Shown here: positions 32,471 through 52,678 of the stretch, piece by piece | Layout: every line of letters starts with the position of its first letter | Numbering within the stretch: position 1 is the first letter of the stretch | Source: Clostridia bacterium | GTDB lineage: Bacteria > Bacillota > Clostridia > Oscillospirales > CAG-272 | Assembly (NCBI GenBank): GCA_017517035.1 | Contig: JAFXAN010000121.1 | Location: 17,736 to 81,735, forward strand | Direction of reading: 5' to 3' | Length of the DNA stretch: 64,000 bases | Program-made: the position numbers and the translations under genes | Notes under the pieces: model-generated | Seen by the model: the letters and a program-made list of their open reading frames with translations, nothing else | What the model was told of the DNA's origin: nothing | Databases searched by the model: none

Positions 32471-33031
32471 TTAACCAAGATTAACTGTGCATCCTTCAAG
32501 TGTGAAGATAACATCCTCAAGGTTCTGATTTGTGTTATCTCCGATGTTAGAAACGAGGCTCAGCTCTGTTTCGCCGCTTGCACCCTCAAGGATCTCAAAG
32601 GACATAACATAAAGAACACCGTCACCCGTGAAATCGGTGGGGTTAATATATAGAGCGGTTGCAAATTCAAGATTAGCAACAACATCGCCGCCCTGCTGAA
32701 TATTTGAAACGATATTCGAGGGTTCAACAAGCTCTGAATCAGTGATCTCAACGGGTCTCAGCTTTGTGTTGTCATAATGAAGCTGAATGTTGAATGCCGC
32801 AAGACCCTGATTACCGGAAATCGCAACGCTTGCAAAAAGCTGATTTCCAACAACCTCTGCCGAAACGGAAACAACGCCGCCATCAACCTTTGCATCGGTT
32901 TCGGGAACATTTCCTGTTATCGCATCTGTGTCGGTACTGTCTGCTCCGCCTTCAACCTTTTCTCCGCAGGAAACAAAGCAGGAAAGCATAAGAACGAGCG
33001 CAAGAAGAAGTACAAAAATTCTTGTTTTCAT
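32471..33031 (-). CDS. small lipoprotein with a cohesin-like beta-sandwich domain
   Basis: Lipobox MKTRIFVLLLALVLMLSCFVSCG. The rest (LFASVAISGNQGLAAFNIQLHYDNTKLRPVEI...GDGVLYVMSFEILEGASGETEL) follows the cohesin pattern. The ATG at 33031 follows GGAGGA. Confidence 0.5.
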   Translation of the reverse strand: MKTRIFVLLLALVLMLSCFVSCGEKVEGGADSTDTDAITGNVPETDAKVDGGVVSVSAEVVGNQLFASVAISGNQGLAAFNIQLHYDNTKLRPVEITDSELVEPSNIVSNIQQGGDVVANLEFATALYINPTDFTGDGVLYVMSFEILEGASGETELSLVSNIGDNTNQNLEDVIFTLEGCTVNLG

Positions 33032-33093: not shown

Positions 33094-33118
33094 TAGGAAT
33101 ATTGATTTTTGATAAAAT

Positions 33119-33143
33119 CGGCTGATCCAAAAGCAGATCAGCC
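33119..33143 (-). terminator. hairpin after GH26 paralog 1
   Basis: 9-bp stem CGGCTGATC/GATCAGCCG. The U-tract on the minus strand is weak. Confidence 0.4.
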
Positions 33144-33150
33144 GAAAAAA

Positions 33151-34188
33151 TCATATCAATTTTGCAACATCTTCAAGTCCGAGAATGCCTTCTGCAGACA
33201 TGAATTTTTCACCTCTGCCCATTTCGTTGAGTGTCCAAGGGGATGTCCATGTAAGCATATATGCTGCGCTATATCCGTCTTCCGACATACGGCGAACAAG
33301 AGACAAAAGATCCTCACCGTTAAAGAGATCTTCCTGCTTTGTTCCAATCTCGGCATTTGCCCTTATCGCCCCGGAAGGCCCCCATTCTGCAATCGAAACG
33401 GGCTTTCCGGTGGATGCGAGATCCTTATATGTGCTGTTGAGGGAAATCTCATAATTTCCGCCGCTGTACCAGTCCATTGCAACAAAATCGCACATATCAC
33501 CCGGATAACCGTAAAGCGCACGAACCATGCCTTGGCTATCGTCTGCAACAATATTGGGACTGAATTCCCAGAGAAGATTGTCAAGCTTTCTTTCGCTTGT
33601 GAAATAATCATAGATATATTTCCATGCTGCAACAAATGTTTCTTCCTTAATCGCTCTTCTCTCCTCTGTTTCGGGATCTCTTTGAACCATGCAGAACCAG
33701 AACCAGCCGCCGTTTGTTTCATGGAGAGGTCTCCAGATAACGGGGACATTGTTGTCATTCAGCTTTTCAAGAAAGTCAGCAATTGCAGACAGCTCGATCT
33801 TGAAATACCTGTTAAGCTCTGTTCCATCGCTTATCATTTCGAGCCAAGTTTCATCAAATCCGAAAAAGCCGCGGTATCCATCGACATCGGGGTTTTTATT
33901 TTTGGGATTTGCAAAATGGGCACTGCAAGTGACAAGTCCGCCCTTTTCGGCATATGCTGTGATCTCCGAAACAACCTGCTCGATTCCCGCCTCTCCAAGT
34001 CTTGTCAGATTGGATTTTCTTATATCAAATCCGAGTATGCCCGGATATTTTCCGTTGTTTTTTTTGAATCTTTCAAGTGTTGCATTTACCATTGCGGGAT
34101 GATTTCCCATTTCCTCGCCAAAAATCAGAAGATCTTTATCGGCATATACTTTTTTAAATAATTCAACAAGTTGCTGCTTGGTATACAT
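33151..34188 (-). CDS. GH26-family glycoside hydrolase, catalytic domain only, no signal peptide (paralog 1)
   Basis: GH26 blocks AHFANP, VIWRPLHETNGGWFWF (acid/base Glu), WEFSPN, DFVAMDWY and SIAEWGP (nucleophile Glu). Confidence 0.8.
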   Translation of the reverse strand: MYTKQQLVELFKKVYADKDLLIFGEEMGNHPAMVNATLERFKKNNGKYPGILGFDIRKSNLTRLGEAGIEQVVSEITAYAEKGGLVTCSAHFANPKNKNPDVDGYRGFFGFDETWLEMISDGTELNRYFKIELSAIADFLEKLNDNNVPVIWRPLHETNGGWFWFCMVQRDPETEERRAIKEETFVAAWKYIYDYFTSERKLDNLLWEFSPNIVADDSQGMVRALYGYPGDMCDFVAMDWYSGGNYEISLNSTYKDLASTGKPVSIAEWGPSGAIRANAEIGTKQEDLFNGEDLLSLVRRMSEDGYSAAYMLTWTSPWTLNEMGRGEKFMSAEGILGLEDVAKLI

Positions 34189-34200
34189 AGCTATTTCTCC

Positions 34201-35082
34201 TTATTTCAGATTCTTTTCCATAAATATGCTCACATTATCATATGTAAGCTTATTGGCGATTTTTCTGCCAAATCTGCTGCAAAGCATTTCATATATCATC
34301 GGGATGCTTTCGATGCCCGAGACACCGCACGGCATAGGTGCTCCGTCCATATCAGCTCCAAAGCAGGTGAAATCTTCCCCACTGAGTGAAAGATAATGTT
34401 CGAAATGGCGCATGATATCATCTGCCGTACATTTTTCTTTCTTTTCCGTAAGATGGTAAGCGCAAAGGCTCAAACCGACTATTCCGCCAAGCTCTTTTAT
34501 TCGCAAAAATTGCTCGTCACGAAGATTTCTCGGGTGTGAATAAACAGAATAAGAGCAGGAATGTGATGCAATTACCACACCTCCCTTTTCTTCAGCCATA
34601 TTCAATATTTCATCAGCGCTTTTTAAAGAGCAATGTGAAATATCGGGGATGATTCCAATTTCAAAGCATCTTTCGATGACAGCTTTGCCGAAATCGGTAA
34701 GCCCCGTGTCTGTATCAAATGCACCGCCTATTATGCTCTCGCCCTTCCACATGGGGATGAGAAATTTAATTCCCATTGAGTGAAGCAGATCAAGTCTTTC
34801 AAGATCACCGCAGAGAAGCCTTGCGTCCTCAAGAGAAAAGGCAAAAGGACCGAAAGAAGCGGGAACGGGACTATGGCGAAGAAAATTTTCGTGCATTTCG
34901 AGAAAATCCGCAAAGCATTCCTCATCCGTGCGATCATTTCTGCACCACAGCGCCATCACCTGCTTATATTCACCTAGACATTTTGCTCTCTCAAGAGAAA
35001 TTGCAAGATCGTTTTGTTTGAATCCTTTGTTTTGAGCATACATTTCATACGCTGTATCGCAATGCAGATCAAAAAACCTCAT
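34201..35082 (-). CDS. M19 (renal-type) dipeptidase family protein
   Basis: MRFFDLHCDT N-terminal metal motif plus GIIPDISHCS, ASHSCSYSVYSHPRNLRDEQ and GGIVGLSL blocks. The ATG at 35082 follows GGAGGA. The Shine-Dalgarno of paralog 1 overlaps this gene's stop. Confidence 0.75.
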   Translation of the reverse strand: MRFFDLHCDTAYEMYAQNKGFKQNDLAISLERAKCLGEYKQVMALWCRNDRTDEECFADFLEMHENFLRHSPVPASFGPFAFSLEDARLLCGDLERLDLLHSMGIKFLIPMWKGESIIGGAFDTDTGLTDFGKAVIERCFEIGIIPDISHCSLKSADEILNMAEEKGGVVIASHSCSYSVYSHPRNLRDEQFLRIKELGGIVGLSLCAYHLTEKKEKCTADDIMRHFEHYLSLSGEDFTCFGADMDGAPMPCGVSGIESIPMIYEMLCSRFGRKIANKLTYDNVSIFMEKNLK

Positions 35083-35092
35083 TTTTCCTCCG

Positions 35093-37015
35093 TTATTTAA
35101 GAGCGTCAAACATCGCCTTGACATCAGATAGACCGAGAGTCATTTCATGATCCATAAATTCTTTTGATTTTCCAAGCTCGGGAATTGACCACTGCCCTGT
35201 CCATGTGAGGAAATATCCGAATTTATAATCGCCCATACGCTTCATTTCGTCAAGCATTGCAAGAATAGATTCGCAGGAGAATATATCCTCTTGTATTTCG
35301 CCCTCTTCATCGGCAATAAGATCTCCCGATGGTCCAAATTCATTGATATTGATCACCATTCCGAGGGACTTCAAGTCACGATATGTAGAGGATTCTTCAA
35401 TATCATAAGCATCTCCGCTTCCGGTATACCAGTCAAAGCCTACAAGATCTACATATTCCTTTCCGGGAAAACCGTAAAGAGGTGCTGTCATATACTGACT
35501 TTCGTTTCCGATATTGGGGCCGTACTCCCAAAGAAGATTATCAAGTCCACGCTCAATTGTAAAATAATCATGAATATATTTCCAAAGATTACTGAAGGAA
35601 GCCTCGCTTACCTTTGTGTCGCCCTGAACCATGCAGAACCAGAACCAGTTACCGTTCGCCTCGTGCAACGGACGCCAGATGACGGGAACCCCATTTTCCT
35701 TAAGTGCTTCAAAGAAATCAGCAATGCCCGCAAGCTCTTTTTTAAAGGCTGTATTATAATCCGTCCCCTCGGTTATAAGCTTTGCCCAGGCATCATCACC
35801 ACCAAGTCGCCCTCTGTAATTTTCAATTGACGGGTCGCCGCCATTCTCTATCGGATTTGAAAAATGTGCGCTTGCAGTTATAATTCCGCCACCTACCGCA
35901 TAATTTGTCAGGTCCGCTATCACCTTTGTTCTTCCGGCTTCGCCAAGCTTATGAAGATTTGCATATCTCACATCAAGACCGAGTATTCCCGGATACTGAC
36001 CGGATTTTTCATAGTAGTTCTGAAGTGTTTTTGAAACTTGATTTGCTCCGTTTGAGATCTCCGTACCAACGATGATCTGATCGGAATTATATACCTTTTC
36101 GAGAACGGTCATAACATCTTCCTTTGAATATATGCTGTCGATCTCAATCACAGCATCGGTATTATGATATGATGTTATATCAAGCTTTCTGTCAACCGCA
36201 CCGGAAAGAAGCATTTCGATATATTCTGTGCTCCAATCGGCATCATAATATGAAGGAGTTATCTCAATATTGCCGTTATTTACAACAAAGGATGACTTTT
36301 TAACCTCGCTTCCCGGCTCACCTATTTTGATCACATGAGCACCTTTGGAAATTGTTGATTTAACCTCAAGCTTTATATCGGCTATATCAAATATGACATT
36401 TGAAATCTCAATTGCTACATCAGCGAAAATATCCGATTCATAAACAATATAATAATCAGAGATAGGATTTCCTTCAATTGTAAGCTGATCCAGCTTCTTT
36501 GTCTCGGGAGAATAGATATATCCCTTTTCGTCACCGGGAATGCAAAGTTTGCCGGATTTATTCACCATTTTTGTTGTCCAAAGTTCGATTGCGTTCATGA
36601 AAGCCTCGTCCGAGCCTGCGCAGATAACGATTTTGTCGCCGACTCTGCGAATCAGATATTCACTATATGATGTGATATCTTCCATCGCCTTCTTACTCTC
36701 GGCACGCTTGGTTTCACCTATAAGAATTTCTTTTGGCTTCGTTCCGCTATAATCTGTTCCAAGCTTGATATCCACACCGAATTTTTCGTTCAGAGTTTTG
36801 CGAAGAGAAACAGCAACATTTTTCTCTTCCTCTGTCGCCTTGTCACTTCTAACGATCGTAAACTCTGCAAGATCATCGATGGCACCAAGTGCTGCGGTAT
36901 TATTCTTCTTTGGTTCATCTTTGTTTACATTTGGAGTTTCCTCACCGCAAGAGCTTAGAAAAGCGGCACAGAAAACCATAGCAAGAGTGAGAAGAAAGGG
37001 TAAAAATCTCTTCAT
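35093..37015 (-). CDS. lipoprotein: N-terminal modules plus a C-terminal GH26 domain (paralog 2)
   Basis: Lipobox LAMVFCAAFLSSCG. GH26 blocks AHFSNP, VIWRPLHEANGNWFWF, WEYGPN, DLVGFDWY and NINEFGP. Confidence 0.8.
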   Translation of the reverse strand: MKRFLPFLLTLAMVFCAAFLSSCGEETPNVNKDEPKKNNTAALGAIDDLAEFTIVRSDKATEEEKNVAVSLRKTLNEKFGVDIKLGTDYSGTKPKEILIGETKRAESKKAMEDITSYSEYLIRRVGDKIVICAGSDEAFMNAIELWTTKMVNKSGKLCIPGDEKGYIYSPETKKLDQLTIEGNPISDYYIVYESDIFADVAIEISNVIFDIADIKLEVKSTISKGAHVIKIGEPGSEVKKSSFVVNNGNIEITPSYYDADWSTEYIEMLLSGAVDRKLDITSYHNTDAVIEIDSIYSKEDVMTVLEKVYNSDQIIVGTEISNGANQVSKTLQNYYEKSGQYPGILGLDVRYANLHKLGEAGRTKVIADLTNYAVGGGIITASAHFSNPIENGGDPSIENYRGRLGGDDAWAKLITEGTDYNTAFKKELAGIADFFEALKENGVPVIWRPLHEANGNWFWFCMVQGDTKVSEASFSNLWKYIHDYFTIERGLDNLLWEYGPNIGNESQYMTAPLYGFPGKEYVDLVGFDWYTGSGDAYDIEESSTYRDLKSLGMVININEFGPSGDLIADEEGEIQEDIFSCESILAMLDEMKRMGDYKFGYFLTWTGQWSIPELGKSKEFMDHEMTLGLSDVKAMFDALK

Positions 37016-37062
37016 TTTAAATCCTCCGTTTGAGACATAAATTGGATTATAAATACCAATAA

Positions 37063-37091
37063 AATTATACATTAATAAAAGTGAAATGTCA
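37063..37091 (-). promoter_or_regulatory. sigma-A consensus promoter candidate (TTGACA-17-TATAAT) for the paralog 2 / dipeptidase / paralog 1 operon
   Basis: Complement of 37086-37091 (TTGACA) and of 37063-37068 (TATAAT), with a 17-nt spacer. This lies about 48 nt upstream of the ATG at 37015. Confidence 0.55.
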
Positions 37092-37260
37092 AGTTTTGAA
37101 CCGTTTCTTTCTTTTTGAAAAATTAGTCGAAAGAAACAAAGTATGCTCTGATTTTTTATTGATATTTTCCCGTTTTTTCAATCAAAAATCCTGCCCAAAA
37201 GCAATTTTTGTAACTTTTTAACATTATATGCTCGACTTATTTGTTTGTTTTTACAAAAAT

Positions 37261-37283
37261 ACGCGGAATCAAAGATTCCGCGT
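37261..37283 (-). terminator. rho-independent terminator after paralog 3
   Basis: 10-bp stem ACGCGGAATC/GATTCCGCGT with a 3-nt loop, followed by ATTTTTGT on the minus strand. Confidence 0.7.
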
Positions 37284-37294
37284 ATATAATTTTA

Positions 37295-39265
37295 TCAATT
37301 TTCAGCCCAGTATTTTGCAAGGTCTTCTCTTGAATACATAATAGGATCCTGCATAAGCTCCTTACCGTTTTCAAGATTATAAACAGTTCTGCTTACCCAT
37401 GTTGCAAAATATGTCACATTGAGACCTTCATCGAGCATGCTCTTTATATCATTGAGCATATCGATAGCGGTATAAGTATAATATGTGCTGCCGTCAACAC
37501 GCTTCTTTGCAAGAGAATCGCCGGGGCCCATTTCAGTAAGCGCTGTAGGCTTACCGAGGCTCATAAGGTCGCTATAGCTATTCTTGCTGTTATATTCCTG
37601 CTTTCCGCTTGTATACCAGTCGATACCGACAATATCCACATATTCATCGCCGGGATATGCGTATTTTACATCGAAAGCGCCGTTGAATGTGGTTGAATAT
37701 ACCCATATTGCATCCTTGACGCCTCGTTCCTCTGTGACGATCTTATAAAGATATTTCCACATATCGTTCATAGCAGATGCGCTGAGGCTTCTTCCGCCAC
37801 CCTGATTTGCTGTCCACCAGAACCAATCTGCATTGATCTCATGGAAAGGTCTGATAAGAACCGGAACGCCGTTCTTTGAGAGTTCTTCGACAACTCTCAC
37901 AGAATCCTCAAATGATGCTCTGAATTTTTCATTAAGCTCTGTTCCCTCAGTGAGCATTTCCTTCACAACATCGTCATTTCCAAGATAGCCTCTGTACCAT
38001 TTACCGTCATCGGCATTCATCAGAGGATTTCCCGCATGGATAACGATCGCCATAATACCACCGTTTGCAGCATGAACAGTTCCCTCTGAAACGAGCTGAG
38101 AAAGATCGTACTGAAGAAGCACATCCTCACCCTCATGCTTGAGATTGAACGGACCGAACTGACCAACATCTATTTCCATGATAGCGCAGGATTCGCCTGT
38201 AGCATCAATGCAATTTTGAACTGTTGCGGCAATACCGCTTCCGTTTGTCTGATCACCGTAGGTATGTGTTCCTGTGATCACCATGTCCTTTCGGCTGTCG
38301 GCTTCGGCAAAGAGAGCAAGAAGCTCATCCTTTGTATATGGAATGGTAAGTCCCATTGTTCCTTCATATGTTTGGGCTGCAACATCAAGAGTTTTCGCCT
38401 CTTCCTCCGCTTCAGCTCCCTCTTTATAGCCGAAAATTTCGGAAATAAGATAGTCTGCAGCTGCGTCAACCGATGCAAAGCTTCCCGTAAGATAAACATT
38501 TCCGTTTTCTATCTTAACAGAATACTTATTTACATCAAGAGATGCGGAGCTGACGATGATCTGCTTGCCTTCCTTATTCTTTGTCTTTGCAATCTCAAGG
38601 CTTCTACCGAAAAGCTTGCCCGCAAACAGCTCATTGAGCCTTTCAGCAAGCTTCTTTGTTTTCTTATTATAGTTGATGGTGGAATAATCGCTCTCATCCT
38701 CATAGAATGTGAATTCTGTTATATCCGCGCCCTCGATCGTAAGCTTATCAAAATAGTAATCAAGCTCATAGCTATATGCTGTATCTGTCGGAACAAGTAA
38801 AGAGCTTTCCTTTCCTCTTATGAAGTTGCGAATGAACATATCCGCCGCCTTTGTGAGAGCTTCAACCGAGCCACCGGAAAGGTAAATCTTACTGTTTTTA
38901 GCCGTGATGTTATATTCAGGCTCGCCAAGACTCTTATCAATCTTAAGAACGATCTGCTTTGCCCCCGGGCCGCCGAGATTTGTCTTGATATCAAGCGCTG
39001 CGCCCGCTTTGTTCTGAATATCGGCACGCATTCTGACAACAAGATCTACAACCTTTTTTTCGGCATTATCATCACGGACAAGAGTATATGAAGCAAGCTC
39101 TTTATCCTCGATAAATTCCACAGAGACAGACTCTCCGCTCTCCCCCTCAAAGGTAACTTTTCCGTCAAAAGCCACCTTATTATCGGTCACAGTGCTTTCT
39201 CCGCATCCGAAAAGAGCCAAAAGAGAAAGGACAAGTACAAAAGAAATCAAAATAAATCTTTTCAT
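37295..39265 (-). CDS. lipoprotein: two GH20b-like N-terminal modules plus a GH26 domain (paralog 3)
   Basis: Lipobox LSLLALFGCG. GH26 blocks HAGNPL, LIRPFHEINADWFWW, WVYSTT, DIVGIDWY and ALTEMGP. Confidence 0.8.
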   Translation of the reverse strand: MKRFILISFVLVLSLLALFGCGESTVTDNKVAFDGKVTFEGESGESVSVEFIEDKELASYTLVRDDNAEKKVVDLVVRMRADIQNKAGAALDIKTNLGGPGAKQIVLKIDKSLGEPEYNITAKNSKIYLSGGSVEALTKAADMFIRNFIRGKESSLLVPTDTAYSYELDYYFDKLTIEGADITEFTFYEDESDYSTINYNKKTKKLAERLNELFAGKLFGRSLEIAKTKNKEGKQIIVSSASLDVNKYSVKIENGNVYLTGSFASVDAAADYLISEIFGYKEGAEAEEEAKTLDVAAQTYEGTMGLTIPYTKDELLALFAEADSRKDMVITGTHTYGDQTNGSGIAATVQNCIDATGESCAIMEIDVGQFGPFNLKHEGEDVLLQYDLSQLVSEGTVHAANGGIMAIVIHAGNPLMNADDGKWYRGYLGNDDVVKEMLTEGTELNEKFRASFEDSVRVVEELSKNGVPVLIRPFHEINADWFWWTANQGGGRSLSASAMNDMWKYLYKIVTEERGVKDAIWVYSTTFNGAFDVKYAYPGDEYVDIVGIDWYTSGKQEYNSKNSYSDLMSLGKPTALTEMGPGDSLAKKRVDGSTYYTYTAIDMLNDIKSMLDEGLNVTYFATWVSRTVYNLENGKELMQDPIMYSREDLAKYWAEN

Positions 39266-39279
39266 TTTTCCTCCAAAAA

Positions 39280-40758
39280 TCATTTGTTTATCTTCCTCCA
39301 ATATTCCGAAATATCCTCAAGGTTCATAACGATATCACTCTCAAGAAGAGCCTTAGAATCAGGCATCGTTCCCGTGGAGCGATTATATGTCCACGTGAGG
39401 AAATAGCATATCTTCTTGCCTCGGCTTCTGAGATTTTCGAGAATTTCAAGGAAATCATATCCTGTAAAATTGAAGCTGACAAGCTTTCCTTCTTCATTTC
39501 TCACCGCATATTTACTATAATCACCGGGGCCAAATTCAGTGAGCGCAATGGGCTTATCGGTAGAGGCGAGATTTTCATATGTGCTGTTCATTTCGATCTC
39601 ATAATTTCCGCCCGTGTACCAGTCACAGCCAACAACATCAACATATTCGTCACCGGGATATGCATAAAGGTTGCTTGGTTTATAGGAAGCATCCTTATCG
39701 TTTCCGCTGGGAGAATATATCCAGACCGCATTGTCAATGCCAAGCTCCTCTGTTACAAGAGTATAGAAGAACTTCCAGAATCTCACCATTATCTCTCTTG
39801 AAAGGTAAACATCTTCTTTCTGGTTTATGCACCACCAGAACCAGTCACCGTTGATCTCATGAAGGGGACGGAACATAAAAGGAAGTCCGTTTTGCTTAAA
39901 AGCTTTAAGAAGTCTTATTGTGGGGTCAAGTGTTTCATAAAGCTTTTTATTGAGGTCTGTTCCCTTTGTAAGAAGCTCATCCGCTACCTCGTTGCTTCCG
40001 AGCCTGCCACGGTAGAATACATTATCTGCCGCATTCATCAGAGGGTTCGACATATGGATACAGATGGAGATGATGCCGCCTGCATCAATGAATTTTGCGC
40101 TTTCCGCAACCATCATTGAAAGGTCAAAATCCGAAAGAGTATCAACGCCTGCATGAGGAGGACAGTAAACGCTGAATCTGCCCAAATCAAGCTCAAGAAT
40201 TGCAGCACAGTGACCGCATTTCTCGATGCTATATCCCCAAGTATCACCAACCTGTGATCCATTGCCCCAAGAGCCCCATGTGTGAGTTCCCGAGATTATC
40301 ATATCTCCTCTTTCCTGTGAAAGCTTGAAAAGATCCTTAAGCTGCTCGGCACTATAAGGAACGGTATATCCCATCGAACCTTCAAAGCTATCTTTTTCGG
40401 AAAGATCAAGCTCTCTTCCTTCTCCATCTCCGAGCATTTTCTCGGTAAAATACTCAAAGGCTTTTGTTACGGAAAGGAAATTTCCTTCGATATGAATATT
40501 TCCTTCTGCGATCCTTACAGAATAAGCATTTGCATCGGTGCTATGACCTGATAAAACGATATAGTTTCCGCCATCCATCTTATCGGCAATGGGAAGCGAG
40601 ACACCAATATATTTTTCTTCAAAAAGCACAGAAAGCTTTTCCGCATATGTAACTGTCTTTATCGGAACTTTTGAATTTACCGATGAATCTCCGTCAACAT
40701 AAATTGAAAATTTTTCAATATCCGTACCGCAAACCGTAAGCTTCTTAAAAACACTCAT
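39280..40758 (-). CDS. GH26-family protein with one N-terminal module and no signal peptide (paralog 4)
   Basis: Starts MSVFKKLTVCGTDIEKFSIY after a GGAGAAGAG Shine-Dalgarno. GH26 blocks HMSNPL, MFRPLHEINGDWFWW, WIYSPS, DVVGCDWY and ALTEFGP. Confidence 0.8.
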   Translation of the reverse strand: MSVFKKLTVCGTDIEKFSIYVDGDSSVNSKVPIKTVTYAEKLSVLFEEKYIGVSLPIADKMDGGNYIVLSGHSTDANAYSVRIAEGNIHIEGNFLSVTKAFEYFTEKMLGDGEGRELDLSEKDSFEGSMGYTVPYSAEQLKDLFKLSQERGDMIISGTHTWGSWGNGSQVGDTWGYSIEKCGHCAAILELDLGRFSVYCPPHAGVDTLSDFDLSMMVAESAKFIDAGGIISICIHMSNPLMNAADNVFYRGRLGSNEVADELLTKGTDLNKKLYETLDPTIRLLKAFKQNGLPFMFRPLHEINGDWFWWCINQKEDVYLSREIMVRFWKFFYTLVTEELGIDNAVWIYSPSGNDKDASYKPSNLYAYPGDEYVDVVGCDWYTGGNYEIEMNSTYENLASTDKPIALTEFGPGDYSKYAVRNEEGKLVSFNFTGYDFLEILENLRSRGKKICYFLTWTYNRSTGTMPDSKALLESDIVMNLEDISEYWRKINK

Positions 40759-40774
40759 TTCTCTTCTCCGTTTC

Positions 40775-42190
40775 TTATTTTTTCCAAAATTTTGACATAA
40801 TGTCATCACGCGTCAGGATCAGATCATCTTTCATAAGAACATCTCCATCTCCAAGTCCCGCAATTGAGCCTTTCCCCGTCCATGTAAGAAAATATGATAT
40901 CTTGAAGCCATCCGAGAGCATTCTCTTCATGGATGATAACAGATCAAGGCACGTCCAATTATAGCCGATGATCTTTCCTTCCTCATTCTTTATCGCAAGA
41001 GGACCGCCCGATGCGGGGCCTACCTCGGTAAGCGCACTTATCTTACCCGTTGACATGACGCCCGAATAAGAATTATTATTATTCACCTCATAATTTCCGC
41101 ATGTATACCAATCACAGCCAACGATATCAACATATTCGTCACCTGGATAAGCATAGAGAACATCAGCACAGCTTCCTGTATTATAGTTTGGCGAATAGAC
41201 CCAAAGAACATCCTTTATATCAAGCTCATCAGAAACAACCTTATAAAAGAATTTCCAGAATTCAGCCATTGTTTCTCTTTGCAGCTTTATATCGCCGCCT
41301 TGATTCACACACCACCAGAACCATCCGCCATTCATCTCATGAAGAGGTCTGAACATAAACGGTATACCGTTCTGCTTCAATGCTTTAAGAAGCATAAATG
41401 TGGATTCAAGAGTTTTGCGAAGTGCGCCATGAAGCTCGGTTCCCTCTGTGAGCATTTCTCTTGCAAGCTCATCGCTTCCAAGCTTTCCTCTGTACCAAAC
41501 CTTATCTTTTGCATTATTCAAGGGATTTGACATATGGATGCAAACCGATATGATGCCACCCTTTGAAGCATGCTCAAGGCATTCTGAAACATAAACAGAA
41601 AGATCATATGGGCTGATTGTATCGCCCTTATAATAAAAGTCAAAATAAACGCTGTGAAGTCCGAGATCAATCTCGATGATTGCGGGAAATTCACCGCATT
41701 TCTCCTTTGTCTGAAGAAGCGTTGAGCCGATCTTTCCCTGCTCTTTTCCCACCTGATATGCGTGAGTTCCGGAAATTATCATTTTGTCGCTCTCGGATGC
41801 AGTCTCAAAAAGCCTGTAAAGATCATCCTTGTTATAAGGAACACCAAGCTCAAGCGAGCCGCTGAAGGAATCTCCCTCACAAAGATCAGACTTTTCTTCG
41901 ATCAGCTTCAAAAATCCTTCAAATGCTCTATCCACCGAAAGGAAGCTTCCGCCGATCTCGATTTTCATTTCCGAAATTTTGACCGAATATGAATTTACAT
42001 CGGTGGATGAGGCTGAAACAACTATATATTTTCCATCTCCCATCTCCTCGGAGATCGTGAGTGAAAGCAGCTCTGAAAGCTTTTCGGCACATACCTTTGA
42101 TTTGATCACTTTATTATCGCAGCTGATCTTGTCTGCGCAATATACGGAAAATTCTCGGATATCAAAACCGCAAACAGTTATGTTTTTCAT
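40775..42190 (-). CDS. GH26-family protein with one N-terminal module and no signal peptide (paralog 5)
   Basis: Starts MKNITVCGFDIREFSVY after a GGAGG Shine-Dalgarno. GH26 blocks HMSNPL, MFRPLHEMNGGWFWW, WVYSPN, DIVGCDWY and ALTEVGP. Confidence 0.8.
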   Translation of the reverse strand: MKNITVCGFDIREFSVYCADKISCDNKVIKSKVCAEKLSELLSLTISEEMGDGKYIVVSASSTDVNSYSVKISEMKIEIGGSFLSVDRAFEGFLKLIEEKSDLCEGDSFSGSLELGVPYNKDDLYRLFETASESDKMIISGTHAYQVGKEQGKIGSTLLQTKEKCGEFPAIIEIDLGLHSVYFDFYYKGDTISPYDLSVYVSECLEHASKGGIISVCIHMSNPLNNAKDKVWYRGKLGSDELAREMLTEGTELHGALRKTLESTFMLLKALKQNGIPFMFRPLHEMNGGWFWWCVNQGGDIKLQRETMAEFWKFFYKVVSDELDIKDVLWVYSPNYNTGSCADVLYAYPGDEYVDIVGCDWYTCGNYEVNNNNSYSGVMSTGKISALTEVGPASGGPLAIKNEEGKIIGYNWTCLDLLSSMKRMLSDGFKISYFLTWTGKGSIAGLGDGDVLMKDDLILTRDDIMSKFWKK

Positions 42191-42207
42191 TAAAGAAGCC
42201 TCCGTTT

Positions 42208-44208
42208 TTATTTTTCGGAATTCCATCTTTCCATAAGGTCTTCTCTTGAAACAACGATATCATCATACATGAGAACATCTGCCATTCCAAGCTCTGCTAT
42301 AGAGAGTTTATTAGTCCATGTGAGGAAATAGCTGACTTTCATGCCGTCCTTTGCCATGCGCTTGATGGACGCAAGAAGATCCTCATTTGTCCAGAGATAA
42401 TATGTGTTACCCTCCGCATCGGTTGCAGCAAGACCGCCGCCCGAAACAGGGCCGACCTCGGTAAGTGCAGCAGGCTTGCCTGTTGACATCACCTTGGTAT
42501 ATGAATCCTTGTTATTTATTTCATAGTTACCGTTTGTATACCAGTCACATCCGACGATGTCAACATATTCGTCGCCGGGATAAGCATAAAGAACATCTGC
42601 GATAGAACCCGAATTATAGTTCGGGGCATATACCCAGATAGCATCTTCAATTCCCATTTCTTCTGTTACAACCTTATAGAAGAACTTCCAAAAATCAGCC
42701 ATTGTCTCCTGGGAAAGGTTGAACCCGCCCTGACCGACGCACCACCAGAACCAGCCACCGTTCATCTCATGGAGCGGTCTGAACATAAAGGGGATTCCGT
42801 TATCGTCAAGTGCTTTAATGAGCATGAATGTGGATTCAAGGGTCTTGCGGAGTGCCTTATTCATCTCGGTGCCGTCCGTGAGCATATCCTTTGCCATCGC
42901 TTCACTATCGAGATGACCTCTGTACCAAACCTTATCCTCTGCATTGTTAAGAGGATTTGCCATGTGAATACAAACGCTGACGATACCGCCGTTTGATACA
43001 TGCTCCGCACATTCAGCCACATTTGCTGAAAGGTCATAGGGAGAAATTGTATCGCCCTTGCTATAAAAATCATAATAGACACTGTGACGACCGATATCTA
43101 CCTCAATGATAGCAGGGCTTTGACCTCCGCTTGCCTCATAAACCGCATCAACCGTCGAAGCTACCCAGCTCTTGCCCTTAAAGCCCTTATAGGCATGAGT
43201 TCCCGAAATCACCATTTCATCATTCTCATAGGCCTCTGCGAAAAGGTCAAGAAGATCCTGCTTTGTATAAGGAACTGTATAATTCAGCGAGCCTTCGATA
43301 TTATTCTTTGCATCAATGGAAAGCGTGTCTCCGCTATGCGCTCTATCCTCGGTATAGCCGAGAATTTCGGTCAAAAATGCGTCATAAGCATTATTTACCG
43401 TTGTGAAGCTACCATCAATATAGACATTTCCGTTTTCTATTTTTACAGAATATCCGTCGGGATCAATATTTGATGCGGTGAGGACGATATAATGCCCATC
43501 GCCCATCTCTTCTGCAACGGGAATATCAATTCCAACAAGCTTTTCCTTCATCAGAAGAGAAAGCTCCTCAGCCATTTTATGAGTTTTTATGTTGGAATGG
43601 TCGACTGTGACCTTATCTGTGCAATAAACAGAAAACTCGGAAATATCAACACCGTCAATTGTAAGCTTATCGAAAATAAAGCTTTTAAGGAAAGTATATC
43701 CCTCGTCGGCCGGAACAAGAATAGATTTATTCTCTCCGTAAATAAAGCATTTGACAAACAGCGCTGCTGCCTCACCCAGTGCCTCATCCGAGCCACCGAG
43801 AATATAAATCTTTCCGTTTTTCTCTGCGATCTTGAAATCATAATATCCAAGTCCCTCTGAAAGCGAAGATGAGTTTGCGTCCTTTGTCACGCCAACAACG
43901 ATCTCCTTAGATGAGCTTCCGCTTGCATTCCAGTCGGTAACAAGATCAAGCTTAATGCCTGTTTTTTCAAGAACAGCCATTCTGATCTCAGTTGCAGCAT
44001 TCTTGACAGCATCTCTTTCAGTGTCGGAGCGGATGATTCTATATGAGGAAACATCGATATCCTCATTCACATCAATATCCGCCTTTTCACCGTTAAGATC
44101 TGTAAGAGTTATTGTTGCATCCGATGTGGGTGCGCTGATGCTTTCTCCGCATGATATGAGAACCAAAGCCAAAACAGATATAAAAACTAAACAAACCAAT
44201 CTTTTCAC
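42208..44208 (-). CDS. lipoprotein: two GH20b-like N-terminal modules plus a GH26 domain (paralog 6)
   Basis: GTG start after a GGAGGTG Shine-Dalgarno. Lipobox LALVLISCG. GH26 blocks HMANPL, MFRPLHEMNGGWFWW, WVYAPN, DIVGCDWY and ALTEVGP. The catalytic domain is very similar to that of paralog 5. Confidence 0.8.
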   Translation of the reverse strand: MKRLVCLVFISVLALVLISCGESISAPTSDATITLTDLNGEKADIDVNEDIDVSSYRIIRSDTERDAVKNAATEIRMAVLEKTGIKLDLVTDWNASGSSSKEIVVGVTKDANSSSLSEGLGYYDFKIAEKNGKIYILGGSDEALGEAAALFVKCFIYGENKSILVPADEGYTFLKSFIFDKLTIDGVDISEFSVYCTDKVTVDHSNIKTHKMAEELSLLMKEKLVGIDIPVAEEMGDGHYIVLTASNIDPDGYSVKIENGNVYIDGSFTTVNNAYDAFLTEILGYTEDRAHSGDTLSIDAKNNIEGSLNYTVPYTKQDLLDLFAEAYENDEMVISGTHAYKGFKGKSWVASTVDAVYEASGGQSPAIIEVDIGRHSVYYDFYSKGDTISPYDLSANVAECAEHVSNGGIVSVCIHMANPLNNAEDKVWYRGHLDSEAMAKDMLTDGTEMNKALRKTLESTFMLIKALDDNGIPFMFRPLHEMNGGWFWWCVGQGGFNLSQETMADFWKFFYKVVTEEMGIEDAIWVYAPNYNSGSIADVLYAYPGDEYVDIVGCDWYTNGNYEINNKDSYTKVMSTGKPAALTEVGPVSGGGLAATDAEGNTYYLWTNEDLLASIKRMAKDGMKVSYFLTWTNKLSIAELGMADVLMYDDIVVSREDLMERWNSEK

Positions 44209-44313: not shown

Positions 44314-44342
44314 ATTATACATCCGAAAAAAGACAATTTCAA
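44314..44342 (-). promoter_or_regulatory. promoter candidate for the paralog 6-5-4-3 operon (TTGAAA-17-TATAAT)
   Basis: Complement of 44337-44342 and of 44314-44319, with a 17-nt spacer. Confidence 0.45.
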
Positions 44343-44419: not shown

Positions 44420-45298
44420 TTATTTTTCTATTCTGTCTATCATAACTCTTCCGGTTTCACACATAAAGCGAAGCCCTGCCGGAAGCAATTCATCAGGCAT
44501 TCTGATAAGGAAACTCGATGCTTCAAAGGTGAAATCACCGTCATAATCAATATCTTTGAGTGCACTTAGAACAGCATCCCAATCAATCTTTGAAAGATAA
44601 GGAAGAGTATGAAGATCGGAATGACCGTCAACATCATGAACATGAAGAGCCTTCAGTCTGTCATGACCGAGAGCGTAAATTATATCCTCTACCTTTTCAT
44701 CTACAAGTGCTGCGTGACCAACATCAAGGCAAGCGATAAGATATGGACTGCCGATACTGTCAATATAATCAACAAATTCATCGGGAGAAGCGCAGGTGCT
44801 GTGAACGATTTTGTCAAATCTTGAATCGTGCTGCCACATATTTTCACAAGCAACTCTTATATTGTATTTCTCCGCAAAAGGAAGCAGTCTGCGATAAAAA
44901 TCAATATTTATATCCTTGAGGATCTCCGGGTTTCCCTTCTCGGCATAGGTAAGGTGCTGGCAAGGATGAACAACGATATCACCGGCTCCAAGAATTGATG
45001 CGCACTCCATCGCACGAACTATAAGATCGAATCTGTCCGCATCCTTCTGGGGATCACCGAAGCTTGATCCGAAGGGGGCATGAGCCTGATTGCATTTGAT
45101 TCTGATCTTATCGGCATAGGCACGAAGCTCCTTTGCGTATTCAAGATATCCTTCACTGTAAAAAGGATTTTCATCCACATTCTGATTGTCAAAAAAGGAC
45201 ATATCATATGCATCAAATCCGGCATCAGCGATCATTTCTATGGCCTTTTTATGACCGAATTTTCTGGCTAAAAAGCTTGTGTTTGTTGACAAAATCAT
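44420..45298 (-). CDS. xylose isomerase-like TIM-barrel sugar phosphate isomerase/epimerase
   Basis: 292 aa. The CENM, LDVGHA and HVHD metal-ligand blocks are typical of the AP_endonuc_2 family. Confidence 0.75.
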   Translation of the reverse strand: MILSTNTSFLARKFGHKKAIEMIADAGFDAYDMSFFDNQNVDENPFYSEGYLEYAKELRAYADKIRIKCNQAHAPFGSSFGDPQKDADRFDLIVRAMECASILGAGDIVVHPCQHLTYAEKGNPEILKDINIDFYRRLLPFAEKYNIRVACENMWQHDSRFDKIVHSTCASPDEFVDYIDSIGSPYLIACLDVGHAALVDEKVEDIIYALGHDRLKALHVHDVDGHSDLHTLPYLSKIDWDAVLSALKDIDYDGDFTFEASSFLIRMPDELLPAGLRFMCETGRVMIDRIEK

Positions 45299-45426: not shown

Positions 45427-46191
45427 ATGGAATTCAAGGATCTGAGAGTAAAAAACATAGGGGCTGTTCTCTATCATAACACTAAAAATGCCAAGTGGAA
45501 AGAGGATAGAAAAAAATATTCAACCCTTCAAATCAAGATAAAAGGAAAAGCCATTCATGATTTTGGAGACAGGAAGATCGTTGCCACCGACAACTGCATA
45601 TATTTTTTAAACCAATATGAAGACAATGATGTTCAGACCTTTGCATGCGACACCGATGTTTCATCAATTGCCGTTTCCTTTACGACCTATGAGCCGATTG
45701 AAACACCGAGCTTTTGCATAAAACTCAATAATATCACCGAATGTGTCAATCTCTTCAACAAGATGAAAACACAAAGGGCACTTTCAGACAGAGGAGATGC
45801 CATGGCTCTCAGCTATTTTTACAGACTCTGCGCAATTTTTGAGGAGCACAGGCAAAAAGAATATTCTCCGAGAGATCCGAGAATGATCGCAGCAAAGGAA
45901 TATATTGATCTTCATTTTGAGCAAAAGGACTGTCTTGACAGATCTGCTGATGAAAGCAAGATATCCCGCAGAAGATTCAATGAGCTCTTCAAAAAGCAAT
46001 TCGGAACAACACCGAATAAATATTTGACAACCAAAAGAATAGAAAACGCTATAATTCTTCTTACTGAACACAAAATTTCAATATCGGAAATCTCTGATAT
46101 GTGCGGATTTGGAGATGTTTATTATTTCAGCAAGGTGTTTAAGGCTGAAACGGGTTACACTCCGGGAAAATACAAGAAAATATATAACTGA
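45427..46191 (+). CDS. AraC family transcriptional regulator
   Basis: C-terminal double HTH (ISEISDMCGFGDVYYFSKVFKAETGYTPGKY) with an N-terminal cupin-like sensor. Confidence 0.85.
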   Translation: MEFKDLRVKNIGAVLYHNTKNAKWKEDRKKYSTLQIKIKGKAIHDFGDRKIVATDNCIYFLNQYEDNDVQTFACDTDVSSIAVSFTTYEPIETPSFCIKLNNITECVNLFNKMKTQRALSDRGDAMALSYFYRLCAIFEEHRQKEYSPRDPRMIAAKEYIDLHFEQKDCLDRSADESKISRRRFNELFKKQFGTTPNKYLTTKRIENAIILLTEHKISISEISDMCGFGDVYYFSKVFKAETGYTPGKYKKIYN

Positions 46192-52650: not shown

Positions 52651-52678
52651 ACTTATATTTCATAGGTGAGCATTTTTT
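52641..52678 (+). terminator. spoIVB terminator hairpin
   Basis: Stem AAAAATGCTCAC / GTGAGCATTTTT followed by a T-run. It overlaps the 3' end of the convergent AraC gene. Confidence 0.7.

What the first reader, a model, noticed from the sequence alone, without database searches (positions are those of the whole stretch)
33151..44208. Six tandem GH26-family paralogs in two operons, with modular N-terminal domains and no transporter or dedicated regulator
Six consecutive minus-strand genes all carry the GH26 blocks (H..NP, RP(L/F)HE.N..WFW(W/F), W.Y.PN, D.VG.DWY, (T/A/N)E.GP). Both catalytic glutamates are intact in every copy.

They fall into two sequence subgroups. Paralogs 1-2 share ...VIWRPLHE.NG.WFWFCMVQ. 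Paralogs 3-6 share ...FRP(L/F)HE.N..WFWW.

There are two transcription units: 6-5-4-3 ending at the terminator at 37261-37283, then a consensus promoter at 37063-37091 driving paralog 2 / dipeptidase / paralog 1.

The long forms carry two tandem roughly 120-150-aa N-terminal modules. Their pattern (charged beta-alpha unit, then ...Y.V.I.NG.I.I.G.S...V..A...F...) is reminiscent of the GH20b/GH89-type N-terminal domain. I have not seen that domain described in combination with GH26.

Such dense GH26 amplification suggests specialisation on a complex mannan or beta-glycan, or on a non-canonical substrate.
Basis: partly seen in the sequence, partly recalled or inferred. Interest (0 to 1): 0.65.

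Follow-up and report, generated by a model that had tools for sequence, protein, structure and literature searches.

The report
Tandem GH26 array with GH20b-like modules
An uncultured spore-forming gut Clostridia bacterium carries six neighbouring, intact genes for mannanase-type (GH26) sugar-cutting enzymes, three anchored on the cell surface and three kept inside the cell, most of them carrying N-terminal domains of a fold known from other glycosidase families that I did not find described with GH26; their substrate is untested.

Summary
Six minus-strand genes (33151-44208) all match Pfam GH26 (E 1e-34 to 1e-38). Both catalytic glutamates are invariant. A 12/12 consensus promoter and two strong terminators separate two operons.

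- P2, P3 and P6 are lipoproteins with two N-terminal modules (A+B).
- P4 and P5 have no signal peptide and carry module B only. P1 is a bare, signal-less catalytic domain.
- An AraC regulator lies 1.2 kb upstream.

AlphaFold models and Foldseek place the modules in the GH20b/GH67N/GH84/GH115 N-terminal-domain fold. Pfam GH20b itself is sub-threshold on the window's proteins.

The module is not specific to GH26. An exhaustive profile search finds 3341 representative proteins, mostly lipoproteins fused to nucleases, phosphodiesterases, esterases and other glycosidases.

At the same chromosomal site, relatives carry 2, 6 or at least 8 GH26 copies, and one shows deletion scars. All six window genes are under purifying selection (dN/dS 0.03-0.16).

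Closest characterised enzymes are endo-beta-1,4-mannanases. The likeliest function is surface depolymerisation plus intracellular trimming of a beta-mannan-type glycan, but specificity is untested.

Verdict: new architectural variant of a known family, moderate interest.

The parts
44314..44342 (-). Promoter-like site upstream of P6 (TTGAAA-17-TATAAT, 11/12). A second TGTATAAT lies about 44240.
42208..44208 (-). P6, 666 aa. Lipoprotein signal (LISC, Cys20), module A (aa ~45-168; nt 43705-44076), module B (aa ~178-290; nt 43339-43677), GH26 domain (aa 314-666).
40775..42190 (-). P5, 471 aa from the RBS-preceded ATG. No signal peptide. Module B (aa 1-~100; nt 41891-42190) plus GH26 domain (aa 119-471).
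39280..40758 (-). P4, 492 aa from the RBS-preceded ATG. No signal peptide. Module B (aa 1-~112; nt 40423-40758) plus GH26 domain (aa 135-492).
37295..39265 (-). P3, 656 aa. Lipoprotein signal (LFGC), module A (nt 38771-39103), module B (nt 38396-38734), GH26 domain (aa 310-656). Module A gives the weak Pfam GH20b hit.
37259..37285 (-). Intrinsic terminator (12-bp stem, 6 GC pairs, T run) ending the P6-P5-P4-P3 unit.
37064..37092 (-). Consensus sigma-70-type promoter TTGACA-17-TATAAT (12/12) for P2-M19-P1.
35093..37015 (-). P2, 640 aa. Lipoprotein signal (LSSC, Cys23), module A (nt 36536-36898), module B (nt 36161-36508), GH26 domain (aa 296-640). The full-length AF2 model has pLDDT 94 and pTM 0.86.
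34201..35082 (-). Peptidase_M19 (membrane dipeptidase family) gene, 293 aa, HxD motif at the N-terminus, no signal peptide. Lies between P2 and P1 and is conserved there in three relatives (L001, L002, L010), absent in L006.
33151..34188 (-). P1, 345 aa. GH26 catalytic domain only, no signal peptide.
33118..33145 (-). Intrinsic terminator (12-bp stem) ending the P2-M19-P1 unit.
32471..33031 (-). Cohesin-domain lipoprotein with its own promoter (33093-33065). Follows the GH26 array in every syntenic relative examined.
44420..45298 (-). Xylose-isomerase-like TIM-barrel (AP_endonuc_2) gene with its own promoter and a hairpin before the P6 promoter. Recurs beside GH26 arrays in L002, L005 and L010. 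Possibly linked.
45427..46191 (+). AraC-family regulator, divergent from the TIM-barrel gene. Candidate regulator of the locus, unproven.

Best explanation
**What it is.** The locus is a real, functional six-gene array of GH26 retaining glycoside hydrolases in an uncultured, spore-forming gut Clostridia bacterium (same species as MAG GCA_045540725.1). It is organised as two sigma-70-type operons: P6-P5-P4-P3 and P2-M19 dipeptidase-P1.

**Proposed division of labour (inferred).**
- P2, P3 and P6 are exported and lipid-anchored on the outer face of the membrane. There they make endo-cuts in a beta-mannan-type polysaccharide (glucomannan or galactomannan being the default expectation).
- P1, P4 and P5 lack signal peptides and stay in the cytoplasm. 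There they shorten oligosaccharides imported by a transporter encoded elsewhere.

**The modules.** The N-terminal modules A and B are divergent members of the GH20b / GH67N / NAGLU_N-type alpha/beta domain superfamily.
- Module B stays with the barrel even in the cytoplasmic forms, so it is probably a structural partner of the (beta/alpha)8 barrel, as in GH20, GH67 and GH84 enzymes.
- Module A, found only in the lipoproteins, more likely serves as a stalk or binding module for surface display. The same tandem modules head thousands of unrelated lipoprotein hydrolases.

**Evolution.** The array evolves by birth and death at a fixed chromosomal site next to a cohesin lipoprotein gene and cdaA.

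**Shown:** family, fold, catalytic residues, signals, operon signals, synteny, selection.

**Inferred:** substrate, localisation, role of the modules.
For: - **GH26 family.** Pfam E 1e-34 to 1e-38. PDB sequence hits to endo-beta-1,4-mannanases: 2WHK/2QHA/3CBW at E 2e-32 for P6, and a P2-family profile at E 6e-54. The AF2 full-length P2 model (pLDDT 94, pTM 0.86) has B. subtilis Man26, KMAN and Muricauda GH26A as its best Foldseek matches (E 1e-19, TM 0.77-0.80 on the target).
- **Catalytic residues.** Both glutamates and the GH26 signature residues are invariant.
- **Signals.** Lipoboxes in P2, P3 and P6. No signal in P1, P4 or P5, whose ORFs are closed by upstream stops. Independent gene calls and relatives start at the same Met.
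- **Operon signals.**
- **Module fold.** AF2 model of the N-terminal region (pLDDT 82). All top-50 Foldseek PDB hits are N-terminal domains of GH20, GH84, GH67 or GH115 enzymes (E 1e-5 to 4e-4, prob 1.0). Supporting Pfam hits.
- **Module family size and partners.** 3341 representatives. Of the top 143, 39 carry GH26 and 104 carry other hydrolase domains. 123 of the 143 have a lipobox.
- **Functionality.** dN/dS 0.03-0.16 for all six genes against a second strain and a second species. Modules are at 0.08-0.25.
- **Birth and death.** 6 copies in L001 and L010. 2 copies in L002, with the first 50 codons of P6 left as a scar. 2 copies in L006. At least 8 copies in L008 at the same cohesin-cdaA site.
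- **Reference model.** A surface GH26 followed by import and intracellular breakdown is the accepted model for Bacillota beta-mannan use (PMC13278490, citing La Rosa et al. 2019).
Against: - No enzyme of this clade has been assayed.
- The usual partners of beta-mannan utilisation were not found among the window's ORFs of 150 aa or more. These partners are a solute-binding protein with ABC permeases, GH36, GH113, GH130 phosphorylases, an epimerase, and CE2/CE17 esterases.
- The only GH130 in the window (6504-7586) is closest to the Bacteroides GH130 group represented by 5A7V, 3R67 and 4ONZ. From my own knowledge these are beta-1,2-mannosidase-type hydrolases. It is not closest to beta-1,4-mannooligosaccharide phosphorylases.
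- One distant homologue sits among GH92, GH2, ROK and SIS genes. Others are isolated among housekeeping genes.
- The nearest solved relatives of the P1/P2 subgroup (12nx, 12nq, 12oa) are deposited only as 'Glycoside hydrolase family 26', with no stated activity.
- I know of few precedents for cytoplasmic GH26 enzymes.
- Localisation rests on sequence rules only.
- No RNA data were available.
Confidence: 0.6

Rival explanations
1. The GH26 array targets a non-plant beta-mannoside, for example fungal or yeast cell-wall mannan, host N-glycan cores, or another microbial glycan. Some paralogs would then have a specificity new to GH26.
For: - The GH130 gene in the window resembles the 5A7V/3R67 Bacteroides group rather than beta-1,4-mannoside phosphorylases.
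- A homologous lipoprotein GH26 in L007 lies between GH2, ROK, SIS, an esterase and two GH92 alpha-mannosidase genes.
- No plant-mannan accessory genes or sugar transporter lie in 64 kb.
- The P1/P2 subgroup is closest to three solved GH26 proteins of undisclosed activity.
- The six paralogs are deeply divergent (30-67% identity), which suggests different specificities.
Against: - Every characterised close relative is an endo-beta-1,4-mannanase.
- The invariant GH26 signature residues are canonical.
- The GH130 gene is 27 kb away.
- The L007 context is a single case.
Confidence: 0.2
2. The enzymes remodel or recycle the bacterium's own cell-envelope or extracellular polysaccharide rather than acquire nutrients.
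For: - The array sits at a conserved position directly beside cdaA-ybbR.
- A lone homologue lies among housekeeping genes in L003.
- In L005 a three-gene GH26 array is followed by a GT4 / pyruvyl-transferase gene.
- There is no transporter, and signal-less copies are present.
Against: - Copy number ranges from 2 to at least 8, and four genes are cleanly deleted in a close relative. That is typical of accessory nutrient-acquisition genes, not housekeeping ones.
- The same N-terminal modules head nucleases, phosphodiesterases, phosphatases and esterases, which look like surface scavenging enzymes.
- The AXE1-type esterase giant protein next door suggests plant-fibre deacetylation.
Confidence: 0.1
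3. Most copies are redundant or decaying duplicates of no individual importance.
For: - P4 is split over two reading frames in the L001 MAG.
- Four genes are lost in L002.
Against: - All six window genes are intact.
- dN/dS is 0.03-0.16 in two independent comparisons, with no stop codons.
- The catalytic residues are invariant.
- The paralogs are old (30-67% identity), not recent copies.
Confidence: 0.05

Closest known systems
GH26 endo-beta-1,4-mannanases of the Bacillus subtilis Man26/YdhT type (PDB 2WHK, 2QHA, 3CBW), Klebsiella KMAN (7EET), Muricauda GH26A (6Q75)
   Same: - Same Pfam family and (beta/alpha)8 fold.
- Same HE acid/base and TE.GP nucleophile motifs.
- They are the best sequence and structure matches.
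   Different: - Only about 25-30% identical.
- Those enzymes are secreted single-domain proteins.
- Here the catalytic domain is preceded by one or two GH20b-like modules. It is either lipid-anchored or signal-less.
- Six paralogs sit in tandem.
PDB 12nx/12ny, 12nq-12nw, 12nu, 12oa ('Glycoside hydrolase family 26', 2026 depositions)
   Same: - Closest solved relatives of the P1/P2 subgroup. E is 8e-31 for P1 and 5e-63 for the P2-family profile.
- Catalytic-domain-only size, like P1.
   Different: - 35-45% identity to members of this clade.
- Organism and activity are not stated in the data available.
- No paper was found.
Roseburia intestinalis-type beta-mannan utilisation in Bacillota (surface GH26, ABC import, intracellular GH130, esterases and others)
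   Same: A cell-surface GH26 followed by intracellular processing is the working model adopted here (PMC13278490).
   Different: - That system has one GH26, with CBM27 and CBM23.
- It has a co-located transporter, regulator, esterases and phosphorylases.
- Here there are six GH26 genes, no transporter in 64 kb, and the presumed intracellular steps are also GH26.
Bacteroides ovatus BoMan26B (surface lipoprotein) plus BoMan26A (periplasmic) in one PUL
   Same: Two GH26 paralogs in one locus are divided between the surface and an inner compartment (PMC6556568, PMC5217682).
   Different: - That is a Gram-negative Sus-type PUL with SusC/D.
- It has no GH20b-like modules.
- It has two copies, not six.
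N-terminal domains of GH20 (Pfam Glyco_hydro_20b), GH67 (Glyco_hydro_67N), GH89 (NAGLU_N), GH84 and GH115 enzymes
   Same: - Same alpha/beta fold and the same position directly before a TIM-barrel catalytic domain.
- Distant homologues of the modules reach these Pfam models.
   Different: - The window's own modules are below the Pfam gathering score (21.2 bits against 26.1).
- They have no PDB hit at sequence level.
- They occur in tandem, up to 10 matched stretches in one protein, and precede many non-glycosidase domains.
BcWH2_GH26 with internal CBM112 (Bacteroides cellulosilyticus)
   Same: A recent example of a GH26 with an unconventional accessory module (PMC13357471).
   Different: - CBM112 is inserted inside the catalytic domain and binds beta-mannan.
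- It is unrelated in position to the N-terminal modules here.

Membership tests
CAZy GH26 | Sequence match to the family model above the curated threshold | tested here: met
   PF02156 at 118-131 bits against a cut-off of 20.2 for all six proteins.
CAZy GH26 | (beta/alpha)8 clan GH-A fold superposable on solved GH26 structures | tested here: met
   The P2 model (pLDDT 94) has 38 GH26 chains as its top Foldseek hits, E down to 1e-19. Tested for P2 only. The other paralogs are inferred from alignment A1.
CAZy GH26 | Acid/base Glu in the (R)P.HE.N motif and nucleophile Glu in the .E.GP motif | tested here: met
   E157 and E268 (P1 numbering) are invariant in A1. They align to the same motifs of 2WHK.
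CAZy GH26 | Retaining hydrolysis of beta-1,4-mannosidic (or, for minority clades, beta-1,3-xylosidic or mixed-linkage glucosidic) bonds | not testable with these tools
   Needs enzyme assays. By profile, the family is near mannanases (E 6e-54), far from lichenase CtLic26A (1e-14) and far from beta-1,3-xylanases (above 1e-3).
GH20b-like N-terminal domain superfamily (Pfam Glyco_hydro_20b / Glyco_hydro_67N / NAGLU_N) | Match to one of the Pfam models above its gathering score | tested here: not met
   - Best on the window's proteins is P3 at 21.2 bits against 26.1.
- Isolated modules give E 1.5e-5 (GH20b), 0.005 (NAGLU_N) and 0.021.
- Met only transitively. Homologous modules in other proteins hit GH20b at 5e-10 and GH67N at 1e-11, and the GH67N hit of P0136 overlaps the region matched by the module profile.
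- Two P6 homologues carry a precomputed PF02838 annotation. The one whose strength was shown (P0266) is marked 'faint'.
GH20b-like N-terminal domain superfamily (Pfam Glyco_hydro_20b / Glyco_hydro_67N / NAGLU_N) | Alpha/beta fold (beta-alpha-beta-beta-beta-beta-alpha-beta) superposable on those domains | tested here: met
   The AF2 model gives this order of elements for both modules. All top-50 Foldseek PDB hits are GH20, GH84, GH67 or GH115 N-terminal domains. This rests on a predicted model, not on a solved structure.
GH20b-like N-terminal domain superfamily (Pfam Glyco_hydro_20b / Glyco_hydro_67N / NAGLU_N) | Located immediately N-terminal to a TIM-barrel glycosidase domain | tested here: met
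   Module B ends about 20-25 residues before the GH26 domain in P2-P6.
Known carbohydrate-binding modules reported with GH26 (e.g. CBM23, CBM27, CBM35, CBM59, CBM112) | Sequence match of the accessory region to a CBM model | tested here: not met
   No CBM family among the Pfam hits of the full proteins or of the isolated modules, even at E up to 10. dbCAN was not available. CBM112 is an internal insertion (PMC13357471).
Gram-positive polysaccharide utilisation locus | Co-located sugar transporter (SBP plus permeases) and regulator alongside the glycosidases | tested here: not met
   No SBP or sugar permease among the window's ORFs of 150 aa or more. The only ABC proteins are exporter-type with a MarR gene. 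An AraC regulator is present 1.2 kb upstream.
Cellulosome-type complex | Dockerin on the enzymes matching a neighbouring cohesin | tested here: not met
   A cohesin-domain lipoprotein lies downstream (E 7e-9). No dockerin hit in any GH26 protein, and the GH26 domain runs to the C-terminus.

The most novel reading that the evidence does not exclude
The tandem GH20b-like modules define a large family (more than 3000 representative clusters) of N-terminal modules of Clostridia surface lipoproteins, mostly unannotated by Pfam in the 67 members sampled. The family would have its own function, such as a new carbohydrate- or cell-wall-binding module, or a wall-spanning pedestal. In addition, at least one of the two GH26 subgroups in this variable-copy array would have a substrate specificity not yet known in GH26, for example a fungal, host or microbial beta-mannoside. 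The repeatedly generated signal-less copies would form an intracellular GH26 pathway without precedent.
Probability: 0.2. Interest if true: 0.7.

Novelty: new variant of a known kind. Interest (0 to 1): 0.5.

Why it matters
- **Unrecognised architecture.** GH26 is a well-studied mannanase family used in feed and biomass processing. This locus shows that a widespread uncultured lineage of animal-gut Clostridia uses an architecture I did not find in the literature searched: lipoprotein signal, two GH20b-like modules, then GH26.
- **Copy-number dynamics.** The lineage expands and contracts this gene at one chromosomal hot spot, with 2 to at least 8 copies.
- **Surface and cytoplasmic pairs.** The copies are repeatedly split into surface and cytoplasmic versions.
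- **A general module.** The same modules head thousands of other surface hydrolases. Working out what they do would apply well beyond GH26.
- **If mannanases.** The organism is a candidate primary degrader of dietary mannans in livestock guts.
- **If not.** The family gains a new specificity.

Tried and rejected
- **Source of PDB entries 12nx, 12nq and 12oa.** A search by entry code found only unrelated papers. A scan of 2026 GH26 papers gave nothing. The mannanase-probe paper does not contain them. They are absent from the Foldseek PDB copy, which ends in April 2026. They are 35-45% identical to members of this clade. Their activity stays unknown.
- **Word-indexed search with the N-terminal region alone.** It gave only 2 hits, which wrongly suggested rarity. 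The exhaustive profile search corrected this to 3341 representatives.
- **Sequence-level link of the modules to solved structures.** None was found, either with single proteins or with an 87-sequence profile.
- **Homology of module A to module B.** Only weakly supported by hhalign (probability 63%, E 7e-5). Both match the same fold.
- **Shared operator.** I looked for one between the P6, P2, TIM-barrel/AraC and cohesin promoter regions, using 13-mers with up to 2 mismatches. None was found beyond the -10 region. Co-regulation by the AraC protein is therefore unsupported.
- **RNA evidence for the operons.** No RNA run holds the locus.
- **Short contig 'joints' between paralogs.** These lie at shared conserved motifs, with only 24-46 letters on the shorter side of each joint. 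I read them as assembly-graph branches, not recombinants.
- **CBM112 as an explanation for the modules.** Rejected. It is an insertion inside the catalytic domain.
- **Decaying duplicates.** Rejected by dN/dS.
- **Cellulosomal assembly via the neighbouring cohesin.** No dockerin was found.

Full report
**1. What is there**

The region 33151-44208 holds seven minus-strand genes. Six match Pfam PF02156 (Glyco_hydro_26) at 118-131 bits, E 1e-34 to 1e-38. The gene between paralogs 2 and 1 matches Peptidase_M19 at E 3e-45.

In the six-way alignment the GH26 signature residues are invariant. In P1 numbering these are H91, N94, P95, R153, P154, H156, E157, N159, W162-F163-W164, W207, D239-W240-Y241, E268, G270, P271 and W314. 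E157 and E268 align with the HE and TE.GP motifs of the Bacillus subtilis mannanase 2WHK.

Identity over the catalytic domain is 49% for P1-P2, 40-67% within P3-P6 and 30-35% between the two groups.

**2. Gene starts, signals and operons**

The mechanically listed starts are too long for four of the GH26 genes and for the M19 gene. The ATG of P2 at 37072 lies inside the -10 hexamer of its own promoter. RBS-preceded starts (GGAGG-type, 6-10 nt upstream) are:
- P6 at 44208
- P5 at 42190
- P4 at 40758
- P3 at 39265
- P2 at 37015
- M19 at 35082
- P1 at 34188

Independent gene calls in a second strain give the same lengths for P6, P5, P4 and P1, and nearly the same for P3 and P2. The database representative of P4 starts at the same Met.

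With these starts:
- P2, P3 and P6 begin with K/R-rich, hydrophobic lipoprotein signals ending in LSSC, LFGC and LISC.
- P1, P4 and P5 have no hydrophobic N-terminus, and their ORFs are closed by upstream stop codons.
- Gaps between genes inside each unit are 10-17 nt.

The regulatory signals are as follows:
- A 12-bp-stem terminator at 37285-37259 follows P3.
- A perfect TTGACA-17-TATAAT promoter at 37092-37064 precedes P2.
- A second 12-bp terminator at 33145-33118 follows P1.
- An 11/12 promoter at 44342-44314 precedes P6.

The two-operon reading is supported by sequence signals only. No RNA run holds the locus.

**3. The N-terminal modules**

P2, P3 and P6 carry module A (about 110-125 aa) and module B (about 105-115 aa). 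P4 and P5 carry B only. P1 carries none.

Sequence-level evidence:
- No PDB chain matches the modules by sequence, even with an 87-sequence profile.
- Pfam gives only sub-threshold hints. GH20b scores 21.2 bits against a cut-off of 26.1 on P3. A module A scores E 1.5e-5, NAGLU_N scores 0.005, and a module B scores GH20b at 0.021.

Structure-level evidence:
- An AlphaFold2 model of the P6 N-terminal region has mean pLDDT 82. It gives each module the order beta-alpha-beta-beta-beta-beta-alpha-beta.
- All top 50 Foldseek PDB hits are N-terminal domains of glycosidases, at E 1e-5 to 4e-4 and probability 1.0. They include GH20 (lacto-N-biosidase 4H04, hexosaminidase 3GH7), GH84 (NagJ 2CBI), GH67 (1L8N, 1K9D) and GH115 (4ZMH, 4C90).
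- The full-length P2 model, built on 87 homologues, has pLDDT 94 and pTM 0.86. This suggests a defined arrangement of the three domains.

Strict Pfam membership is not met for the window's own proteins.

**4. The modules are a large, promiscuous family**

- A word-indexed search with the N-terminal region found only two proteins.
- The exhaustive HMMER search with the module profile found 3341 representative proteins at E<=1e-3 and 1184 at E<=1e-10.
- Among the 143 best new representatives, 39 carry GH26. Of these, 32 have a lipobox and 7 are module-B-only forms without a signal.
- The other 104 carry other domains, and 91 of them have a lipobox.
- Pfam on 67 of the non-GH26 members shows Exo_endo_phos (15), GDPD (11), GDSL lipases (4), beta-helix (4), metallo-beta-lactamase (4), alkaline phosphatase (2), BNR sialidase-like (2), GH16 (2), GH43 and CE2_N.
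- Ten of the 67 reach GH20b (best 5e-10), GH67N (1e-11) or NAGLU_N in the region aligned to the module profile.
- The modules occur up to 10 times in one protein.
- Both modules are under purifying selection in this locus. dN/dS is 0.08-0.25 against 0.03-0.09 for the catalytic domains.

My reading (inference) has two parts. Module B is kept even by the cytoplasmic forms, so it is a structural partner of the barrel, as in GH20, GH67 and GH84 enzymes. Module A is restricted to lipoproteins and shared with unrelated surface hydrolases, so it serves display or binding.

**5. Relatives and evolution**

The organism is an uncultured spore-former; YabQ and SpoIVB are present. It occurs in animal gut metagenomes, including bovine ones.

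A MAG contig (GCA_045540725.1) is 96-98% identical in DNA and has the same gene order. The full A+B+GH26 architecture occurs in about 100 clusters at 90% identity. All named ones are from 'Clostridia bacterium' MAGs and labelled 'hypothetical protein'.

Synteny at the site next to a cohesin-domain lipoprotein gene and cdaA-ybbR:

| Locus | GH26 content |
|---|---|
| Window, L010, L001 | Six GH26 genes. P4 lies in two frames in L001. |
| L002 | Only P2-M19-P1, with the first 50 codons of P6 and the last 97 codons of the giant LRR gene left as deletion scars. |
| L006 | Two genes (P2-like and P1-like). |
| L008 | At least eight. |

A further copy lies about 15 kb away in the same genome as L008.

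A neighbour-joining tree without bootstrap puts P1 and P2 with their L006 orthologues. It puts P3 with the long forms of L008. It pairs long P6 with short P5, and it pairs a long with a short gene in L009. This pattern suggests either repeated loss of the signal and module A after tandem duplication, or gene conversion.

All six genes have dN/dS 0.03-0.16 against both L010 and L001, with no stop codons. They are functional genes.

**6. Function**

Evidence for a beta-mannan substrate:
- By sequence and predicted structure, the closest characterised enzymes are endo-beta-1,4-mannanases: B. subtilis Man26, KMAN, Muricauda GH26A and others.
- The lichenase CtLic26A (E 1e-14) and the beta-1,3-xylanases (E above 1e-3) are much further away.
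- The default is therefore a beta-mannan-type substrate. Three surface-anchored enzymes would do the first cuts and three cytoplasmic ones would process imported oligosaccharides. This matches the general Bacillota model of a surface GH26 followed by import (PMC13278490).

Points that keep this at about 0.6:
- No transporter and none of the usual accessory enzymes lie in the 64-kb window. The ABC pair at 47113-50770 is exporter-type, with a MarR gene.
- The window's GH130 gene is nearest to the Bacteroides group of 5A7V and 3R67. From my own knowledge these are beta-1,2-mannosidase-type hydrolases.
- One homologue sits among GH92, GH2, ROK and SIS genes. Others are isolated.
- The nearest solved relatives of P1/P2 are unannotated 2026 entries.

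An AraC regulator (45427-46191) and a xylose-isomerase-like TIM-barrel gene (44420-45298) lie directly upstream. Both are syntenic with the GH26 genes in L002 and L010, and an AP_endonuc_2 gene also follows a three-gene GH26 array in L005. No shared operator was found.

**7. Comparison and verdict**

- **Membership in GH26:** met on sequence, predicted fold and catalytic residues. Activity is untestable here.
- **Membership of the modules in the GH20b-like superfamily:** met by predicted fold and position, and transitively by sequence. It is not met by the Pfam threshold on these proteins.
- **Other classifications:** it is not a classical Gram-positive PUL because there is no transporter. It is not cellulosomal because there is no dockerin. 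The modules are not a known CBM.
- **Literature:** I found no paper describing a GH20b-like domain with GH26.

This is a new architectural variant of a known enzyme family, in a copy-number-variable array. Interest is moderate (0.5). It would rise if a new specificity or a function for the module family were shown.

Noticed in passing
window 25129-32127 (-): A giant 2332-aa secreted protein with an N-terminal AXE1/CE7-like esterase domain (E 6e-14) followed by many BspA-type leucine-rich repeats (LRR_5, E 5e-69). It lies just downstream of the GH26 array. It is conserved in L001 and L010 and reduced to a 97-codon C-terminal remnant in L002.
   Followed up: partly
window 32471-33031 (-): A cohesin-domain lipoprotein (Pfam Cohesin, E 7e-9) with its own promoter. 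It always follows the GH26 array and precedes cdaA in L001, L002, L006, L008 and L010. No dockerin partner was detected in the neighbouring proteins.
   Followed up: partly
window 6504-7586 (-) and 7583-8755 (-): A GH130 gene overlaps by 4 nt with a Beta-lactamase2-family gene. The GH130 is closest to the Bacteroides structures 3R67, 4ONZ and 5A7V (E 5e-58), not to beta-1,4-mannooligosaccharide phosphorylases. In the L011 genome a GH26 lipoprotein gene lies one gene (adh_short) beyond the orthologous beta-lactamase-like gene, roughly where the window has the GH130.
   Followed up: partly
L008 1-14024 and L011 10001-12034 (scaffold_3 of ERZ28594082): A relative has at least eight tandem GH26 genes (four long, four short) at the same cohesin-cdaA site, plus a ninth GH26 lipoprotein about 15 kb away.
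   Followed up: partly
L002 3869-4018 and 9244-9534: Deletion scars. The first 50 codons of P6 (signal peptide and lipobox, 66% identity) and the last 97 codons of the giant LRR gene survive, while the rest of the P6-P3 operon and of the giant gene is gone.
   Followed up: yes
L001 3060-4531: The P4 orthologue aligns in two different reading frames (aa 1-88 and 89-492). This is either a frameshifted pseudogene or a MAG assembly error.
   Followed up: no
proteins P0136-P0255, e.g. P0140 (3270 aa, 10 module copies): The same N-terminal module family heads lipoproteins with Exo_endo_phos, GDPD, GDSL, metallo-beta-lactamase, alkaline phosphatase, BNR, GH16 and GH43 domains. It shares a nearly invariant 'EIL.G.T.R' motif that is degenerate in P3 and P6. 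In the 67 members scanned with Pfam, only 10 reached any GH20b, GH67N or NAGLU_N hit.
   Followed up: partly
window 45427-46191, 52660-53469, 55951-56760, 59137-59928, 61540-62406: Five AraC-family regulators lie in 64 kb. One has a PocR sensor domain and lies next to a glycyl-radical enzyme (53610-55748). One lies beside a GH30 gene (60057-61406).
   Followed up: no
window 46361-47116 (-): A 251-aa protein with no Pfam hit in my scan. Its orthologues are annotated DUF8091 in L006 and L010. It is translationally coupled to the ABC exporter pair with its MarR gene, and it lies between that unit and the AraC gene.
   Followed up: no
window 42208-44208, P6 aa 1-136: A weak NCBIfam hit to the 'Lmo2079 family surface lipoprotein' model (E 0.004, 16 bits against a cut-off of 150). 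This may hint that this Listeria lipoprotein family shares the signal-plus-module-A N-terminus.
   Followed up: no
window 33700-42600, contigs of runs X1, X6, X7, X9: Short assembly 'joints' connect different paralogs at conserved GH26 motifs (for example 33757 to 37931 and 37657 to 39832). I read these as k-mer graph branches, but recombination between paralogs cannot be excluded from contigs alone.
   Followed up: partly
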